Of a DNA stretch of 51,038 nt, positions 12,001-18,000 are shown one piece after another. The DNA is taken from the IMG/VR virus record IMGVR_UViG_2872180393_000001; one strand, given 5' to 3'. Numbering within the stretch: the stretch's first letter is position 1; the number at the start of each line of letters is the position of its first letter. Position numbers: made by a program. Origin of the DNA: a virus. Taxonomy: Duplodnaviria > Heunggongvirae > Uroviricota > Caudoviricetes.

Positions 12001-15000
12001 TGTCATGAATCGAAGATAAGCAGAACGGACTGGAGGTTTATTGCTTCGGTCTTGTGTGCTTTCGGAATGGCATCAGACATCAGTCCGATTAGCAGGGCTT
12101 TTAAGTATGCGCTTGATGGACTCACCAATAAAAAACGCCCGGTGTGCAAGACCGAGCGTTCTGATCAAATACAAATGGAATTTTAACAACATCCAACGAG
12201 GTAATTATATGCGAAAAACGCAGGAAAATAAACGCGTTAATCACCGAAAAGATGTGCTACGTGACCAGTTTTATCAGGGGGTTAATCCAGAAATAGCTGT
12301 GCCACTGAGAGAAATACTTAACAGGTACAAAACTTCGGAGAAGTCAAAATGAGCATGAATCTTATGGCTAAGGCCATGAATATAAAGGTTGGCAACCCAC
12401 TGAGAAAACTGATTCTGATTAAACTTGCCGATAACGCCAATGATAATGGCGAATGCTGGCCTTCATATCAACATGTCGCTGACCAGTGTGAGGTGAGCAG
12501 ATCGACAGTAAAAAGTCACATTAGGGCACTGGAAGAGATGGGGCTTTTGAAAAGGGAATGCAGAAGAAAAGGAGAGCTTAACCAGTCAAACGTTTTTTAT
12601 CTGACGCTGGATAATGCACAACAAATCCCACCAGAATCAGGTGGGGCAGGAGCTGCCCGGGGTGGGGCAGGAGCTGCCCTAGGGGTGGGGCAGGAGCTGC
12701 CCCAGAACCTATCACTCTTTTGAACCAGTCAATGAACCTAAAAACATTATGTTCGAACATGTCCGAACGGAGTGTGAAAAAACTCCTGACCGTCACGAAG
12801 AAACCGACAAGGCATTCGAGGAAATATTCTGGTGTGCAGGCATGCGGAAAGCCGGGAAGAAAAACGCAGCTTCGGCATTCAGAACACAGTTCAGGGAATG
12901 GCGTAAAACTACCAGGGGTACGGCAAGCGAGTTTGCCACGATGCTGGCAGAAGACATCGCATGCAGGAATGGTAAGCAGTTCGGATTCGACAGGTTGTTA
13001 CCGTCGAGCTACCTGAACGGTCAGCGCTGGAACGACGAGAAGCCAGAAACCATTCAACCACAATCCAGACCATCATCCGCAATTACCGTATCGAAAACTG
13101 GCTACGTGTTTTTCGACAGGTGAACCATGAAATCAAAAATCAAATCGCTACTGGTCGCTGGTTATAACCACGGCTGGTTAAGTATTTCGTTTGTCGATTT
13201 CTGGTTTAAAAATCTCGACCTCAGCAGCCATTAGCTCCGTCAATGGCGTTTAAACGCCATCAGACGCGCTGTAGTGCGATAAACGACGGTCTGACGGAAA
13301 ATACACAGGATAAAAAAATATTGCGTCAGAATGCGATTCAGGACGGTTAAAGTATGAGTCCATCAGAACTTAGCGACCTGCTTTGGGCGCAGGTTGACAG
13401 GGTGGCTCCGCACCTGTTGCCAAACGGCAAGAAAGAGGGGCATGAGTGGGTTGCCGGTAACGTCAACGGTGACAAGGGAAACAGCCTTAAGGTCAACCTT
13501 AGCGGTAAGAAAAAATGGGCTGATTTCGCTGAGGGAGACGGCGGTGACATGCTTGATTTGTGGATGGCATGTCGTGGAATTAACCTGCATCAGGCTATGC
13601 AGGAAGCGAAAGCATTTCTCGGTATCAAGGATGACGATCACCATTTCGATGCCAAACGTGAGAAGAAATTCTCCAGACCTGATCGCAAGAAAATCGCCCA
13701 CTACGTTACCAGAACAGAATCCCATCTTGAGTACCTGCAATCGCGTGGCATATCGCCAGAAGTCGTAAAGCGCTACGAGGTTGTCAGCGGCAAGGTGTGG
13801 AATGGAGAACGAGAACTGGATGCTCTGGTGCTTCCGTACAAACGCGATGGTGAGTTGTTGCAGGTCAAGCGAATCAGCACTGAGCGCCCGGACGGGAAGA
13901 AAGTCATTATGGCAGAAGGTGATTGCGAACCTTGCCTGTTCGGATGGCAGGCTCTGGACGCTGGCGTGAGGGCGGTTGTGCTTTGCGAAGGCGAAATTGA
14001 TTGTATGAGCTATGCGCAATACGGCATCTCGGCGTTATCCGTGCCGTTTGGTGGCGGGAAAGGCGCTAAGCAACAGTGGATTGAGTTTGAGTATCACAAC
14101 CTCGACAGGTTTGAGGAAATATTCATCTCGATGGACGTTGATGATGTTGGTCGTGAAGCCGCAAGGGAAATCGCAAGCCGACTCGGTGAACATCGTTGCC
14201 GTCTTGTTACTCTGCCGTACAAAGACATCAACGAATGCCTGATGAACGGTGTTACCGAGGATGAAATCTGGCAGTACATCGGCACGGCATCCTACTTCGA
14301 TCCTGAAGAACTCTACAGTGCGCGAGAGTTTTACCAGGACACTATCAACGCTTTCTACGGCAAGCAGCAGTATCTGTTTAATCCACCGTGGGAATCTCTG
14401 GCAGATAAATTCCAGTTCCGTGAGGCAGAGTTGACGCTGGTCAATGGTGTGAACGGTCACGGAAAGGCATGCCCACTGAATGAGCCTATTCTTTTAGCTG
14501 ATGGGACATGGACTACTCACGGGAATGTAAAAATTGGCGATCAGGTGGCGTCAGTAGACGGCAATCCGTCAACTGTCACTGGGATATTCCCGCAGGGTGT
14601 TAGAGATGTTTACCGAGTCACATTTGAAGATGGTCGTTATGTTGATTGCGCAGGCGATCACCTATGGGAGGTCACTAGTCGTGGATTCACGAAAGGCGAG
14701 AAACGCCGCGTGATAGATACCTTCGGGTTGAAGCGGTTGAGTGAAACGAAGAGGCACAAAAATGGCGTTAGGATTCCTGAAATAACTGGTGACTTTGGCG
14801 ACCACTCAGAGCTATTAGCATGGGTTATCGGCTCCCTTCTCGGGGATGGTAGTCTTAGCAATGGGAGCGTGAAGTTTTCAAACGTCGAGCCATACATGAT
14901 CGAGCGTATGAAGGCTGAACTGCCTGATTACAACTTCTCTGGAGATGGTAAGGACTGGCTGATATCAACGGCGCGTGGTCAGGTAAATCCACTCATGGAG

Positions 15001-18000
15001 ACCCTGCGAGGTTATGGACTAATGGGGTGCACAGCAAAAAACAAATTCATCCCTCGTGTGTTTTTTTCCGCAAATAAATCAACGCGTATAGGCATGCTGT
15101 GTGGTCTGCTTGAAACGGATGGGTATGTCGAGAAGGATGGAACGCTTGTTTTTTCCTCAGCAAGTGAAGAACTGCGCAATGGGGTTGTTCAACTGGTTAA
15201 CTCACTCGGCGGGTCATGCCGGACGCGAGTTAAAACTGGCGTGACATACACATACAAGGACGATAAGCGGCATGGGATGGATTCATACGAGGCAAGAATC
15301 AGACTGACAAGAGAAATCAGGGAGGCCATCCGTTCACCACGACTCAATGGCAGATTAACTGCGCATCGATTCGAGGGCTGTGGGGTATTCGTCAGGAATG
15401 TTGAAAAAATCGGCAATGCAGAATGCTTGTGTATTATGGTCGATCACCCTCGCCACCTGTATGTAACCAGGGGATATGTGGCGACGCATAACACCGAGGT
15501 TGTCGGGCATATGGCACTTGAGGCAATGCGTCAGGGTGTGAAGACGTGCATCGCGTCACTTGAGCTGAAGCCTGGTATTCTCCTTAAGCGACTTACCCGT
15601 CAGGCAACGTGCTGCAAGATGCCGCCAGTGCTGGAAATTGACTCTGCATTTAAATTTTATGACGAAAGACTTTGGGTGTTTGGCCTGACCGGAACGGCGA
15701 AAGCCGACAGGCTGATCGAAATATTCGACTACGCTCGCCGCCGATACGGGATCCAGTTATTCATCATCGACAGCCTGATGAAATGTGGCATAGGCGACGA
15801 TGACTATAACGGGCAGAAGGCGTTTGTTGACTCGATTTGCGACTTCAAAAACAAAACAAACTCCCACGTCATTCTCGTTACTCACTCGCGAAAAGGAGAC
15901 AGCGAAGAAAAACCAACCGGGAAAATGGACGTAAAAGGCTCTGGAGCGATAACAGACCTGACAGACAACCTTTTCATCATCTGGCGTAACAAGGCTCGCG
16001 AGAGAGCGTTACAGAGAGTTCAGAGTGGTGAAAAGATGTCAGAGAAGGACGAACAGCTACTGGCATCTCCGGCATCTGTTTTGATGCTTGAAAAACAACG
16101 TAACGGCGAAGGTTGGGAAGGTGGTGTCCCGTTGTTCCTTGACGAGCAATCGCACCAGTTCCTGCAACTTGAATCAGGATCGCCATATAGCTACATCGCC
16201 AATATGCCGAAATCGGAATATGACGAGGCGTGGCGACAGGAAAACGTGACGGAGTATTAAATGACCATCTACATCACTGAGCTAATAACAGGCCTGCTGG
16301 TAATCGCAGGCCTTTTTATTTGGGGGAGAGGGAAGTCATGAAAAAACTAACCTTTGAAATTCGATCTCCAGCACATCAGCAAAACGCTATTCACGCAGTA
16401 CAGCAAATTCTTCCAGACCCAACCAAACCAATCGTAGTAACCATTCAGGAACGCAACCGCAGCTTAGACCAGAATCGAAAGCTTTGGGCTTGCCTTGGTG
16501 ACGTCTCTCGTCAGGTTGAATGGCATGGTCGCTGGCTGGATGCAGAAAGCTGGAAGTGTGTGTTTACCGCAGCATTAAAGCAGCAGGACGTTGTTCCTAA
16601 CCTTGCCGGGAATGGCTTTGTGGTAATAGGCCAGTCAACCAGCAGGATGCGTGTAAGCGAATTTGCGGAGCTATTAGAGCTTATACAGGCATTCGGTACA
16701 GAGCGTGGCGTTAAGTGGTCAGACGAAGCGAGACTGGCTCTGGAGTGGAAAGCGAGATGGGGAGATCGGGCTGCATGACTATCAAATCAAATACGCCAGC
16801 ACTCGACAAGGACTGCTGGCAAACGCCGCTTTGGCTTTTTGATGCGCTGGATATTGAGTTTGGATTCTGGCTGGATTCAGCTGCGAGCGACAAAAACGCT
16901 CTGTGCGCTCACTGGCTAACTGAGGCTGACGACGCGCTAAATTCTGAGTGGATAAGCCACGGTGCAATCTGGAATAACCCACCGTACAGCAATATCAGGC
17001 CGTGGGTGGAAAAAGCCGCTGAGCAGTGCATACAACAGCGACAGACGGTAGTGATGCTTGTGCCAGAGGATATGTCAGTCGGATGGTTCAGCAAGGCTCT
17101 GGAGAGTGTTGACGAAGTTCGTATTATCACTGATGGACGGATTAATTTTATCGAACCATCGACAGGGCTGGAGAAGAAGGGAAACAGCAAAGGTTCCATG
17201 CTGCTGATTTGGCGACCGTTCATCAGTCCTCGACGGATGTTTACTACCGTATCCAAAGCGGCATTGATGGCGATCGGGCAGGGCGTCAGGAGGGCTGCAT
17301 GAGGCGACAGCGACGAAGCATCACCGACATCATCTGCGAAAACTGCAAATACCTTCCAACGAAACGCTCCAGAAATAAACGCAAGCCAATCCCAAAAGAA
17401 TCTGACGTAAAAACCTTCAATTACACAGCTCACCTGTGGGATATCCGGTGGCTAAGACATCGTGCGAGGAAATGACAATGGATTATTCACAGTTAAGTGA
17501 TTTTGAAATTAACGTGGCGGTATTCGAAGCCATTCATAACGGATCACCGGATTACAAAGAAGGTGAGAATGGCGATATGGTGTTTGTCTCATTTGAGGGA
17601 GACATTGTAAACGGAGACGCAGTTGAAGTAGAAGTTGAGCGCGGATCATTTAACCCATGCGTAAACCCAGCAGACGCATGGCCGATTATTGAAAAATACA
17701 GGATTAGCATTATCAATCTCGATGAAGACGAGTGGGGTGCACGCGGTGTGGCCTACTGTAAATCTAAGCGAGCTATACATGAAAATCCCCTCCGCGCCGC
17801 CATGATTGTCTTTCTCATGATGCAGAGAATCCAATAATGCTTAGCCCATCCCAATCCCTTCAATACCAGAAAGAAAGCGTCGAGCGGGCTTTAACGTGCG
17901 CTAACTGCGGTCAGAAGCTGCATGTGCTGGAAGTTCACGTGTGCTCCGATTGCTGCGCAGAACTGATGAGCGATCCGAATAGCTCAATGTACGAGGAAGA

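What the first reader, a model, noticed from the sequence alone, without database searches (positions are those of the whole stretch)
14470..15492. LAGLIDADG intein inserted beside the P-loop of the prophage primase-helicase
The helicase Walker A region (GVNGHGK-A) is followed by a Cys-initiated 341-aa insert with two LAGLIDADG motifs that ends in HN followed by Thr; SF4 helicase motifs (LFIIDSLM, LEKQRNGE) resume afterwards. These are the hallmarks of a full-size intein with homing endonuclease at a classic ATPase-site insertion point, unusual in a lambdoid replication module.
Basis: partly seen in the sequence, partly recalled or inferred. Interest (0 to 1): 0.65.

Follow-up and report, generated by a model that had tools for sequence, protein, structure and literature searches.

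The report
Class 3 intein in prophage helicase
The insert is a real self-splicing intein with a homing endonuclease that splits the ATP-binding loop of a prophage primase-helicase, but it starts one residue earlier than reported (Ala, not Cys), belongs to the known "class 3" inteins, and was already described in Shiga-toxin phage phi24B.

Summary
The N-terminal boundary is one codon off. Seven intein-free alleles, 87-99% identical in DNA, are all 626 aa and read GVNGHGK|TEVVGH. The insert is therefore 342 aa (14467-15492), starts with Ala, and sits inside the Walker A motif between GK and T.

A non-nucleophilic residue 1, Trp67 in block B, Cys322 in block F, Thr340 in block G and Thr+1 make up the published class 3 signature. 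Of 143 scorable relatives, 141 carry the Trp-Cys-Thr triplet, 107 start with Ala, and 114 have Gln where this intein has Cys2.

The closest solved splicing domains are the class 3 DnaB inteins 6rix and 6bs8. The predicted structure (pLDDT 95.8) matches PI-SceI overall. Both LAGLIDADG catalytic Asp residues are present.

The same intein (98.8% aa identity) was reported in phage phi24B protein P in 2012. It occurs in 79 of 5426 complete E. coli genomes. So: a real intein, "Cys-initiated" is wrong, the mechanism is most likely class 3, and the element is already known. Interest is low.

The parts
13354..16260 (+). Host gene: bifunctional primase-helicase precursor, 968 aa, with a Toprim primase half and a T7 gp4/DnaB-like SF4 helicase half.
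   Evidence: ORF. Pfam Toprim_2 at aa 209-296. The intein-free orthologue hits Toprim_2, AAA_25 and DnaB_C, phrog_239 'DNA primase/helicase' at 1.9e-171, and T7 gp4 and Twinkle structures.
13354..14466 (+). N-extein, aa 1-371. It ends with the first part of Walker A, GVNGHGK (14446-14466).
   Evidence: Intein-free alleles read GVNGHGK|TEVVGH. Coordinates.
14467..15492 (+). Intein, 342 aa, from Ala1 (Ala372) to Asn342 (Asn713).
   Evidence: All five intein-containing alleles are 968 aa and all seven intein-free alleles are 626 aa. Relatives align as GK|A...THN|T. AlphaFold model pLDDT 95.8. Foldseek matches PI-SceI at TM 0.72-0.77.
14467..14505 (+). Splicing block A, ACPLNEPILLADG. Residue 1 is Ala, which is not a nucleophile. 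Cys2 replaces the family-consensus Gln.
   Evidence: Among 143 relatives, residue 1 is Ala in 107 and residue 2 is Gln in 114 and Cys in 1. The phiKp_30 copy has 12 nt changes in the first 16 codons but only 3 aa changes.
14632..14673 (+). Splicing block B, GRYVDCAGDHLWEV, with His65 and Trp67. Trp67 is the 'W' of the class 3 Trp-Cys-Thr triplet. Block B position 7 is Ala, not the class 1 Thr.
   Evidence: His65 and Trp67 are invariant in the 48-sequence alignment. Trp is present in all scored relatives. The segment aligns to AAHQW of the class 3 MchDnaB1 intein, 6rix.
14812..14853 (+). LAGLIDADG motif 1, LLAWVIGSLLGDGS, with the putative catalytic Asp127.
   Evidence: Aligns to PI-SceI residues 206-219, placing Asp127 opposite Asp218. 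Gly122 and Gly128 are invariant. Model helix 118-127.
15085..15129 (+). LAGLIDADG motif 2, RIGMLCGLLETDGYV, with the putative catalytic Asp218. The conserved Lys193 (15037-15054, KNKFIP) lies upstream.
   Evidence: Aligns to PI-SceI LAGLIDSDGYV, placing Asp218 opposite Asp326 and Lys193 opposite Lys301. Lys193, Asp218 and Gly219 are invariant. Pfam LAGLIDADG_3.
15415..15465 (+). Splicing block F, NAECLCIMVDHPRHLYV. Cys322 (block F position 4) is the predicted initiating nucleophile.
   Evidence: Cys322 is invariant and is Cys in all 143 relatives. It aligns to the block F Cys in VRCVEVDNPAHLY of 6rix. The obligate role of the block F Cys is described.
15469..15495 (+). Splicing block G, RGYVATHN, followed by Thr+1 (ACC 15493-15495). 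Thr340 is the 'T' of the triplet; His341 and Asn342 end the intein. Thr+1 completes Walker A as GKT after splicing.
   Evidence: Thr340, His341 and Asn342 are invariant. Residue +1 is Thr in 129 and Ser in 13 of 143 relatives.
15493..16260 (+). C-extein: the rest of the helicase domain, including LFIIDSLM (Walker B region, 15757-15780) and LEKQRNGE (DnaB-type KQRNG motif, 16087-16110), then the stop codon.
   Evidence: DnaB_C and AAA_25 hits span the junction in the intein-free orthologue.

Best explanation
A 342-aa class 3 intein with an embedded LAGLIDADG homing endonuclease interrupts the Walker A P-loop (GVNGHGK|T) of the prophage's T7-gp4-like primase-helicase. It is the same element already reported in Stx phages phi24B and Min27.

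Inferred mechanism, from the published class 3 pathway:
1. The precursor is translated with a split P-loop and is presumably ATPase-dead.
2. Residue 1 is Ala, so no N-S acyl shift can occur at the N-terminal junction. Instead the block F Cys322, helped by His65 and Trp67 of block B, attacks the Lys371-Ala372 peptide bond and forms a thioester branched intermediate.
3. The N-extein is passed to the side chain of Thr+1.
4. Asn342 cyclises and releases the intein.
5. An O-N shift gives ...GVNGHGK-TEVVGH..., a normal GKT Walker A and a 626-aa active enzyme.

At the DNA level, the LAGLIDADG domain (Asp127, Asp218, Lys193) would cut intein-free alleles at the GGAAAA|ACGGAG site and copy the intein in by homing during co-infection.

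Shown here: the exact insert boundaries, the class 3 sequence signature, the fold, conservation of all family-invariant residues, presence/absence polymorphism, and substitutions biased towards synonymous changes. Inferred: that splicing and homing actually occur.
For: Boundaries:
- Seven intein-free alleles (mEp043, E. coli MS1718, JCKP02, BHD6, FACU, APC_JM3.2, Salmonella epsilon34) are all 626 aa and read GHGK|TEVV.
- Five intein-containing alleles are all 968 aa.

Class 3 signature as defined in PMC2807308:
- Ala1, Trp67, Cys322, Thr340 and Thr+1 are all present.
- Among 143 scorable relatives from an exhaustive search, the triplet is Trp-Cys-Thr in 141.
- Residue 1 is Ala in 107; only 4 of the 143 begin with Cys or Ser.
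- The preceding dipeptide is GK in 121, and +1 is Thr or Ser in 142.

Structure:
- The best PDB sequence hits for the splicing domain are the class 3 inteins MchDnaB1 (6rix/6riy, 2e-9) and Msm DnaBi1 (6bs8).
- The AlphaFold model has pLDDT 95.8 and pTM 0.93.
- It matches PI-SceI at TMq 0.72-0.77. The class 3 mini-inteins cover its splicing domain at TMt 0.74-0.79.

Functional integrity:
- All 17 invariant columns of a 48-sequence family alignment are retained, including His65, Trp67, Cys322, Thr340, His341, Asn342, Lys193 and Asp218.
- The intein dN/dS is about 0.15-0.3, and 0.11-0.2 for the N-terminal splicing part.
- Ala1 and Cys2 are kept in the phiKp_30 copy through synonymous codon changes.
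- The intein-containing gene is the only primase-helicase in phi24B, an infective phage.

Mobility:
- The intein copies are >=99% identical in 79 E. coli genomes.
- Two intein-containing alleles, Z869 and ATCC 35150, differ at 20 N-extein sites but at only 1 intein site.
- The element sits in Sepvirinae Stx phages, a Lederbergvirus of Klebsiella, and the lambda-like prophage of this window.
Against: - No experiment shows splicing or endonuclease activity for this element. Smith et al. 2012 state that its function is undetermined.
- Cys2 lies next to the scissile bond, so a contribution to the chemistry cannot be excluded from sequence alone.
- Block B position 7 is Ala. The class 3 Msm DnaBi1 has Asp there, but this position varies among relatives (C, D, G, S, T, A).
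- This particular copy sits in a prophage that looks defective: four IS600-like insertions and a frameshifted initiator gene. Selection on this copy may be relaxed, and it carries a private Pro116Leu change just before LAGLIDADG helix 1.
- The dN/dS values rest on few substitutions, and the endonuclease part has only 3-6.
- The extein mosaicism could come from ordinary recombination between lambdoid phages rather than homing.
Confidence: 0.88

Rival explanations
1. One reading: a canonical class 1 intein of 341 aa. Cys373 makes the initial N-S acyl shift, and the ligated product is GVNGHGKA-TEVV.
For: A Cys lies two residues after the GK of Walker A, and the insert ends in HN|T. Cys2 is conserved in all five copies examined, including phiKp_30, where its codon differs (TGT against TGC).
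Against: - All seven intein-free alleles lack the Ala as well; the length difference is 342 codons.
- The product would have GKAT in place of the universal GK[ST] Walker A.
- In the family alignment the Ala aligns with the consensus Ala1, and the Cys aligns with position 2, which is Gln in 114 of 143 relatives and Cys in 1.
- The class 1 hallmarks are replaced: block B position 7 is Ala rather than Thr, and block F position 4 is Cys rather than Asp.
Confidence: 0.03
2. A decayed or non-splicing insertion. The intein no longer splices, so the primase-helicase gene is effectively a pseudogene in this defective prophage.
For: The window's prophage carries four IS600-like copies, and its O-like initiator gene is frameshifted. 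This copy has a private Pro116Leu change. No splicing data exist for this element. A class-3-like intein pseudogene is known in Arthrobacter (Arth_1007; abstract).
Against: - The 968-aa frame is intact.
- Every family-invariant splicing and endonuclease residue is present.
- This copy differs by one residue from the FDAARGOS_943 copy and by four from the O157:H7 copies.
- Substitutions among copies are mostly synonymous.
- The same intein sits in the sole primase-helicase of the infective phage phi24B.
Confidence: 0.07
3. A class 2 (KlbA-like) mechanism. With Ala1, the +1 nucleophile attacks the N-terminal junction directly and no block F cysteine is involved.
For: The intein begins with Ala, as KlbA inteins do.
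Against: By definition class 2 inteins lack the Trp-Cys-Thr triplet, and the studied Mja KlbA intein attacks through Cys+1. This intein has the full triplet and Thr+1. Its nearest solved relatives are class 3 inteins.
Confidence: 0.02

Closest known systems
Intein of replication protein P of Stx phage phi24B (vB_EcoP_24B), also in phage Min27 (Smith et al. 2012, BMC Genomics 13:311, PMC3430580)
   Same: The same element in the same 968-aa gene at the same site. The intein is 98.8% identical in protein and the gene about 99% identical in DNA. The paper places the start of the interruption at residue 372, which agrees with Ala372.
   Different: The paper gives the end as residue 702, taken from a domain hit, and does not assign a mechanistic class or name an endonuclease in the passages I read. 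The window copy sits in a lambda-like, IS-ridden prophage with no tRNA genes, and I did not check whether it carries stx. It has 4 aa differences from the O157:H7 copies, including a private Leu116. From memory only, this intein was listed in InBase as 'EP-Min27 Primase'; I could not verify that here.
Class 3 inteins: the prototype mycobacteriophage Bethlehem DnaB intein (Tori et al. 2010), and the solved Msm DnaBi1 (6bs8) and MchDnaB1 (6rix)
   Same: A non-nucleophilic residue 1, the Trp-Cys-Thr triplet, THN|T/S at the C-terminus, and insertion in a helicase P-loop where the +1 Ser/Thr is also the Walker A residue. They are the best sequence hits for the splicing domain, and their structures cover it at TMt 0.74-0.79. 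His65 and Trp67 even share numbering with Msm DnaBi1.
   Different: Msm DnaBi1 and MchDnaB1 are mini-inteins with no endonuclease, whereas this one keeps an intact LAGLIDADG domain. The host is a gp4-like primase-helicase rather than cellular DnaB. Block B position 7 is Ala (Asp in DnaBi1). It has Cys at position 2.
PI-SceI (yeast VMA1 intein)
   Same: The overall two-domain architecture of a HINT domain plus a LAGLIDADG endonuclease (TMq 0.72-0.77). Both catalytic Asp residues and the active-site Lys align.
   Different: PI-SceI is a class 1 intein (Cys1, Cys+1), is 454 aa, and has an extra DNA-recognition region. Sequence identity is only about 16%.
Paralogous intein in the DnaB helicase of other Stx2a phages (TL-2011a, Stx2_EH1965 and others)
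   Same: 50% aa identity, full length, the same GK|T P-loop position, Ala1, ECLCIMV in block F and THN|T.
   Different: The host gene is a DnaB-type helicase belonging to a different replication module. Residue 2 is Met rather than Cys.

Membership tests
Intein (HINT protein-splicing element) | An in-frame insert that is precisely absent from otherwise near-identical homologues, whose removal restores a conserved host motif. | tested here: met
   Seven alleles of 626 aa read GHGK|TEVV, against five of 968 aa. Removing 342 aa restores Walker A as GKT.
Intein (HINT protein-splicing element) | Splicing blocks A, B, F and G, with a C-terminal His-Asn and a Ser/Thr/Cys at +1. | tested here: met
   Blocks located. 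His65, His341 and Asn342 are invariant in the family alignment. Residue +1 is Thr.
Intein (HINT protein-splicing element) | HINT fold. | tested here: met
   The AlphaFold model (pLDDT 95.8) matches PI-SceI, MchDnaB1 and Msm DnaBi1 by Foldseek with probability 1.00.
Intein (HINT protein-splicing element) | Autocatalytic excision with ligation of the exteins. | not testable with these tools
   Needs expression with western blot or mass spectrometry. It is only inferred from residue conservation and from the infectivity of phi24B.
Class 3 intein | Residue 1 is not Cys, Ser or Thr. | tested here: met
   Residue 1 is Ala372, as defined by the intein-free alleles. Among relatives, 107 of 143 begin with Ala and only 4 of 143 with Cys or Ser.
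Class 3 intein | The Trp-Cys-Thr triplet: Trp at block B position 12, Cys at block F position 4, Thr at block G position 5. | tested here: met
   Trp67, Cys322 and Thr340. The triplet is present in 141 of 143 relatives. It aligns with the same residues of 6rix. Definition.
Class 3 intein | Thr or Ser at +1. | tested here: met
   Thr714, codon ACC at 15493-15495.
Class 3 intein | The block F Cys is obligate and forms the first, thioester branched intermediate. | not testable with these tools
   Requires C322A/S mutagenesis and trapping of the intermediate.
Class 1 (standard) intein | A Cys/Ser/Thr nucleophile as the first intein residue. | tested here: not met
   Residue 1 is Ala. The Cys is residue 2, and starting at that Cys would leave GKAT.
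Class 1 (standard) intein | Block B Thr-x-x-His, and usually Asp at block F position 4. | tested here: not met
   Block B reads A-G-D-H, with Ala at position 7. Block F position 4 is Cys.
Class 2 (KlbA-like) intein | Ala1 without the Trp-Cys-Thr triplet; in the studied Mja KlbA intein, direct attack by Cys+1. | tested here: not met
   The triplet is present and +1 is Thr.
LAGLIDADG homing endonuclease (two-motif, intein-borne) | Two LAGLIDADG helices, each ending in a catalytic acidic residue. | tested here: met
   Asp127 and Asp218 align with PI-SceI Asp218 and Asp326, and Lys193 with Lys301. Pfam LAGLIDADG_3 scores 35.4 bits against a 22.5 cut-off. Invariant columns.
LAGLIDADG homing endonuclease (two-motif, intein-borne) | Site-specific cleavage of the intein-free allele, and homing. 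| not testable with these tools
   Only indirect signs. The intein is more uniform than the N-extein among intein-containing alleles, and it occurs in three phage backgrounds.
SF4 T7-gp4-like primase-helicase (the host protein) | A Toprim primase domain followed by a RecA-like helicase domain with Walker A GK[ST]. | tested here: met
   Toprim_2, AAA_25 and DnaB_C. T7 gp4 and Twinkle structures match down to 2.7e-23. phrog_239.

The most novel reading that the evidence does not exclude
Cys2 is rare in this family (1 of 143 relatives; the consensus is Gln) but is kept in both diverged copies of this intein. It lies next to the scissile Lys371-Ala372 bond, which the catalytic Cys322 must approach. 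Under oxidising conditions a Cys2-Cys322 disulfide might reversibly block splicing. This would resemble the Cys48-Cys118 redox trap shown for the class 3 Msm DnaBi1 intein. It would make activation of the Stx-phage primase-helicase redox-gated. To my own knowledge, not checked here, oxidative stress such as H2O2 also induces Stx prophages. No evidence here supports this beyond the position and conservation of Cys2. The distance between the two cysteines could not be measured because model coordinates are not exposed.
Probability: 0.07. Interest if true: 0.55.

Novelty: already known. Interest (0 to 1): 0.2.

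Why it matters
Little is new. The intein was reported in phi24B in 2012, and class 3 inteins in phage helicase P-loops have been known since 2010.

The useful outcome is a correction and an annotation. The insert starts at Ala372, not Cys373, so this is a class 3 intein whose initiating nucleophile is predicted to be the internal Cys322. Anyone cloning it from Cys373 would get a construct missing residue 1 and a host protein with a broken Walker A.

Practically, it is a full-length class 3 intein with an apparently intact homing endonuclease in E. coli O157:H7 Stx2a prophages. Near-identical intein-free alleles are naturally available. That makes it a convenient system for testing class 3 splicing and homing in an enterobacterial host. 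Whether Stx-phage replication depends on splicing, or is regulated by it, is still untested.

Tried and rejected
- The word-indexed homologue search with the intein returned only 6 proteins and missed the full-length 968-aa proteins. The exhaustive representative search replaced it.
- I tried to retrieve the prototype mycobacteriophage Bethlehem DnaB intein from AY500153 30000-52000. tblastn with this intein found nothing at 1e-3, and the annotated DnaB-like gp62 there is only 273 aa. I used the solved class 3 inteins 6rix and 6bs8 as references instead.
- Tori & Perler 2011 (PMC3133030), on expanding class 3 and its phage origin, is not held. The supplementary tables of Tori 2010 are not held.
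- Searches for 'EP-Min27' and 'primase intein' found nothing. My recollection that InBase lists an 'EP-Min27 Primase' intein therefore stays unverified.
- I looked for a co-conversion tract that separates intein-containing from intein-free alleles. Only the two flanking codons differ. Lys is AAG in four of five intein-containing alleles and AAA in phiKp_30 and all intein-free alleles. Thr is ACC in intein-containing alleles and ACG or ACT in intein-free ones. The C-extein haplotype of the intein-containing alleles is shared with the intein-free MS1718. With 11 alleles this cannot separate homing from ordinary recombination.
- There is no composition anomaly: GC is 0.47-0.52 across the intein, like the exteins.

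Full report
**1. The observation**

The window has one long ORF at 13354-16260(+), 968 aa.
- TGC at 14470-14472 is Cys373.
- AAC at 15490-15492 is Asn713.
- ACC (Thr) follows.

Both LAGLIDADG motifs and the downstream LFIIDSLM and LEKQRNGE strings are present. The similarity is far above chance:
- Pfam finds LAGLIDADG_3 at 35.4 bits (cut-off 22.5) and a sub-threshold Hom_end_hint match.
- Pfam also finds Toprim_2 and AAA_25 in the flanks.
- NCBIfam matches fall on intein-containing DnaB, RecA, RNA polymerase A'' and GyrA models.

**2. The boundary is one codon off**

megablast finds this gene in 296 complete E. coli genomes and 39 phage records. The hits fall into two length classes, about 100% or about 65% coverage, at 98-99% identity.

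I retrieved seven short alleles:
- phage mEp043
- phage APC_JM3.2
- Salmonella phage epsilon34
- E. coli MS1718, JCKP02, BHD6 and FACU

I also retrieved four further long alleles, five counting the window's:
- FDAARGOS_943
- O157:H7 Z869
- O157:H7 ATCC 35150
- Klebsiella phage phiKp_30

Every short allele is 626 aa and reads NGVNGHGK|TEVVGHMA. Every long allele is 968 aa and reads NGVNGHGK|ACPL...YVATHN|TEVVGHMA.

The insert is therefore 342 aa (14467-15492) and starts with Ala372.

**3. What kind of intein it is**

Tori et al. 2010 define class 3 inteins by three features:
- a non-nucleophilic residue 1;
- a co-varying triplet of Trp at block B position 12, Cys at block F position 4 and Thr at block G position 5;
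- Thr or Ser at +1.

They note that most class 3 inteins sit in helicase P-loops. This insert has Ala1, AGDH65LW67, ECLC322IMV and AT340HN|T.

An exhaustive HMMER search of 1.84 billion representative proteins found 2788 clusters at E<=1e-30. Most of the top 150 are ~800-aa DnaB-type proteins with the intein at about residue 210. Mapping the key positions in the 143 scorable hits gave:

| Position | Result in 143 relatives |
|---|---|
| Preceding dipeptide | GK in 121 |
| Residue 1 | Ala in 107; only 4 begin with Cys or Ser |
| Residue 2 | Gln in 114, Cys in 1 |
| Triplet | Trp-Cys-Thr in 141 |
| Residue +1 | Thr in 129, Ser in 13 |

The consensus start is GK|AQPLDAKVL, against GK|ACPLNEPIL here. 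The Ala is therefore intein residue 1, and the Cys merely replaces the usual Gln.

Structural evidence agrees:
- The closest solved splicing domains by sequence are the class 3 inteins MchDnaB1 (6rix/6riy, 2e-9) and Msm DnaBi1 (6bs8). The block F Cys and the THN motif align.
- A 48-sequence alignment has 17 invariant columns. All are kept here, including His65, Trp67, Cys322, Thr340, His341 and Asn342.
- AlphaFold on that alignment gives pLDDT 95.8 and pTM 0.93.
- Foldseek matches PI-SceI over both domains (TMq 0.72-0.77). The class 3 mini-inteins cover the splicing domain (TMt 0.74-0.79).

**4. The endonuclease**

The HMMER alignment to PI-SceI places Asp127 opposite Asp218, Asp218 opposite Asp326, and Lys193 opposite Lys301. 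Lys193, Asp218, Gly219, Gly122 and Gly128 are invariant in the family alignment. By sequence, the domain looks catalytically competent.

**5. The host protein**

The intein-free orthologue hits several families and structures:
- Toprim_2, AAA_25 and DnaB_C, the last spanning the junction;
- phrog_239, 'DNA primase/helicase';
- T7 gp4 and Twinkle structures, down to 2.7e-23.

It is an SF4 primase-helicase. It lies downstream of an O-like initiator and upstream of ninB, in a lambdoid early-right operon.

**6. Is it alive and mobile?**

Evidence that the intein is functional:
- Between the window copy and phiKp_30 the intein has 18 synonymous and 11 non-synonymous differences, a dN/dS of about 0.18. 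The N-terminal splicing part gives 0.14.
- The first 16 codons of the phiKp_30 copy carry 12 nt changes but only 3 aa changes. Ala1 and Cys2 are kept through synonymous changes.

Evidence consistent with mobility:
- In E. coli the intein DNA occurs in 79 of 5426 genomes, at 81 places. In every listed record it lies in this gene, and all copies are >=99% identical.
- Z869 and ATCC 35150 differ at 20 N-extein sites but at only 1 intein site and 0 C-extein sites.
- N-exteins of intein-containing alleles are no closer to each other than to intein-free ones.
- The element is found in Sepvirinae Stx2a phages, a Klebsiella Lederbergvirus, and this window's lambda-like prophage.

This fits recent spread by homing. 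Ordinary recombination between lambdoid phages would give a similar picture, and 11 alleles cannot separate the two.

**7. Mechanism (inferred)**

The mechanism is the published class 3 pathway:
1. Cys322 attacks the Lys371-Ala372 bond.
2. The N-extein is passed to Thr+1.
3. Asn342 cyclises and releases the intein.
4. An O-N shift restores GKT.

Before splicing the P-loop is split, so the helicase should be inactive. Nothing here tests the chemistry.

**8. Comparison with what is known**

Smith et al. [quoted passage not shown] They say its function is untested. That intein is 98.8% identical to this one.

A 50%-identical paralogue sits at the same GK|T site of the DnaB gene in many other Stx2a phages: PGMGK|AMALSEG...ECLCIMV...IVTHN|T. 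Inteins in Stx and lambdoid replication genes are therefore not rare.

The element is already known. What this analysis adds is the exact N-terminal boundary, the class 3 assignment and the population picture.

**9. Rival explanations**

- A class 1 intein starting at Cys373 is contradicted by the intein-free alleles and by the family alignment.
- A dead insert is unlikely, given the intact residues and the infectivity of phi24B. For this particular copy it is not excluded, because the prophage looks defective: four IS600-like copies and a frameshifted initiator gene.
- A class 2 mechanism is contradicted by the Trp-Cys-Thr triplet and Thr+1.

**10. Verdict**

This is a real feature. The element has been described before, so interest is low (0.2).

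The only non-excluded novel angle is a regulatory role for the unusual Cys2, for example a redox trap with Cys322 like the one in Msm DnaBi1. I have no evidence for it beyond the position and conservation of Cys2.

Noticed in passing
window 6328-7591, 23759-25023, 39180-40449, 48953-50217: There are four copies of a ~1264-bp element, 99.7-99.9% identical to the IS600 (IS3-family) transposase loci annotated in E. coli FDAARGOS_943. They are scattered through the prophage, in the early-left region and among the late genes. The prophage is probably defective and of the IS-riddled type I associate with Shigella.
   Followed up: partly
window 12349-13123 (+): The O-like replication initiator gene just upstream (phrog_4617) is split into two 124-aa ORFs (12349-12723 and 12749-13123). 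The cause is two 1-nt deletions in G5 and C5 runs, relative to the intact 258-aa gene of FDAARGOS_943. This is either a frameshifted pseudogene or a homopolymer sequencing error.
   Followed up: partly
window 12640-12702: A 23-bp tandem array of 2.9 copies (consensus GGTGGGGCAGGAGCTGCCCAGG) lies inside the initiator gene and encodes the GGAGAA repeats. It may be the origin iterons, by analogy with lambda O. The two frameshifting deletions lie within it.
   Followed up: no
window 2015-2103 (-): An Rfam sRNA-Xcc1 match (RF02221) scores 68.3 bits against a gathering score of 53, full length, in the early-left region of the prophage.
   Followed up: no
L005 3398-5791 (Stx2a phage Stx2_EH1965), plus TL-2011a and about 40 other Stx2a phage records: A different replication module, a 797-aa DnaB-type helicase, carries a 50%-identical full-length class 3 intein at the same GK|T position of its P-loop. 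Stx2a phages therefore harbour two paralogous class 3 inteins in alternative helicase genes.
   Followed up: partly
L008 (Klebsiella phage phiKp_30), first 16 codons of the intein; equivalent to window 14467-14514: There are 12 nucleotide differences in the first 16 codons, against 25-28 over the whole 1026-bp intein. The upstream Lys codon is AAA, as in intein-free alleles. This looks like a recombination patch from a more diverged intein allele.
   Followed up: partly
window 14812-14814 (intein residue 116): The window copy has Leu where the four other copies examined have Pro, immediately before LAGLIDADG helix 1. It is the only amino-acid difference from the FDAARGOS_943 copy.
   Followed up: no
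window 1-51038: ARAGORN finds no tRNA genes in the window. The syntenic FDAARGOS_943 prophage has tRNA-Asn and tRNA-Thr between the Q antiterminator and the holin gene. The late-regulatory region of the window (about 17.5-21.3 kb) does not align with that prophage.
   Followed up: no
L004 7578-9296 (-) (mycobacteriophage Bethlehem gp52, annotated 'phosphoesterase'): This 572-aa protein appears to contain a large insert in a metallophosphoesterase, and I suspect a different intein. It does not match the window's intein by tblastn at 1e-3.
   Followed up: no
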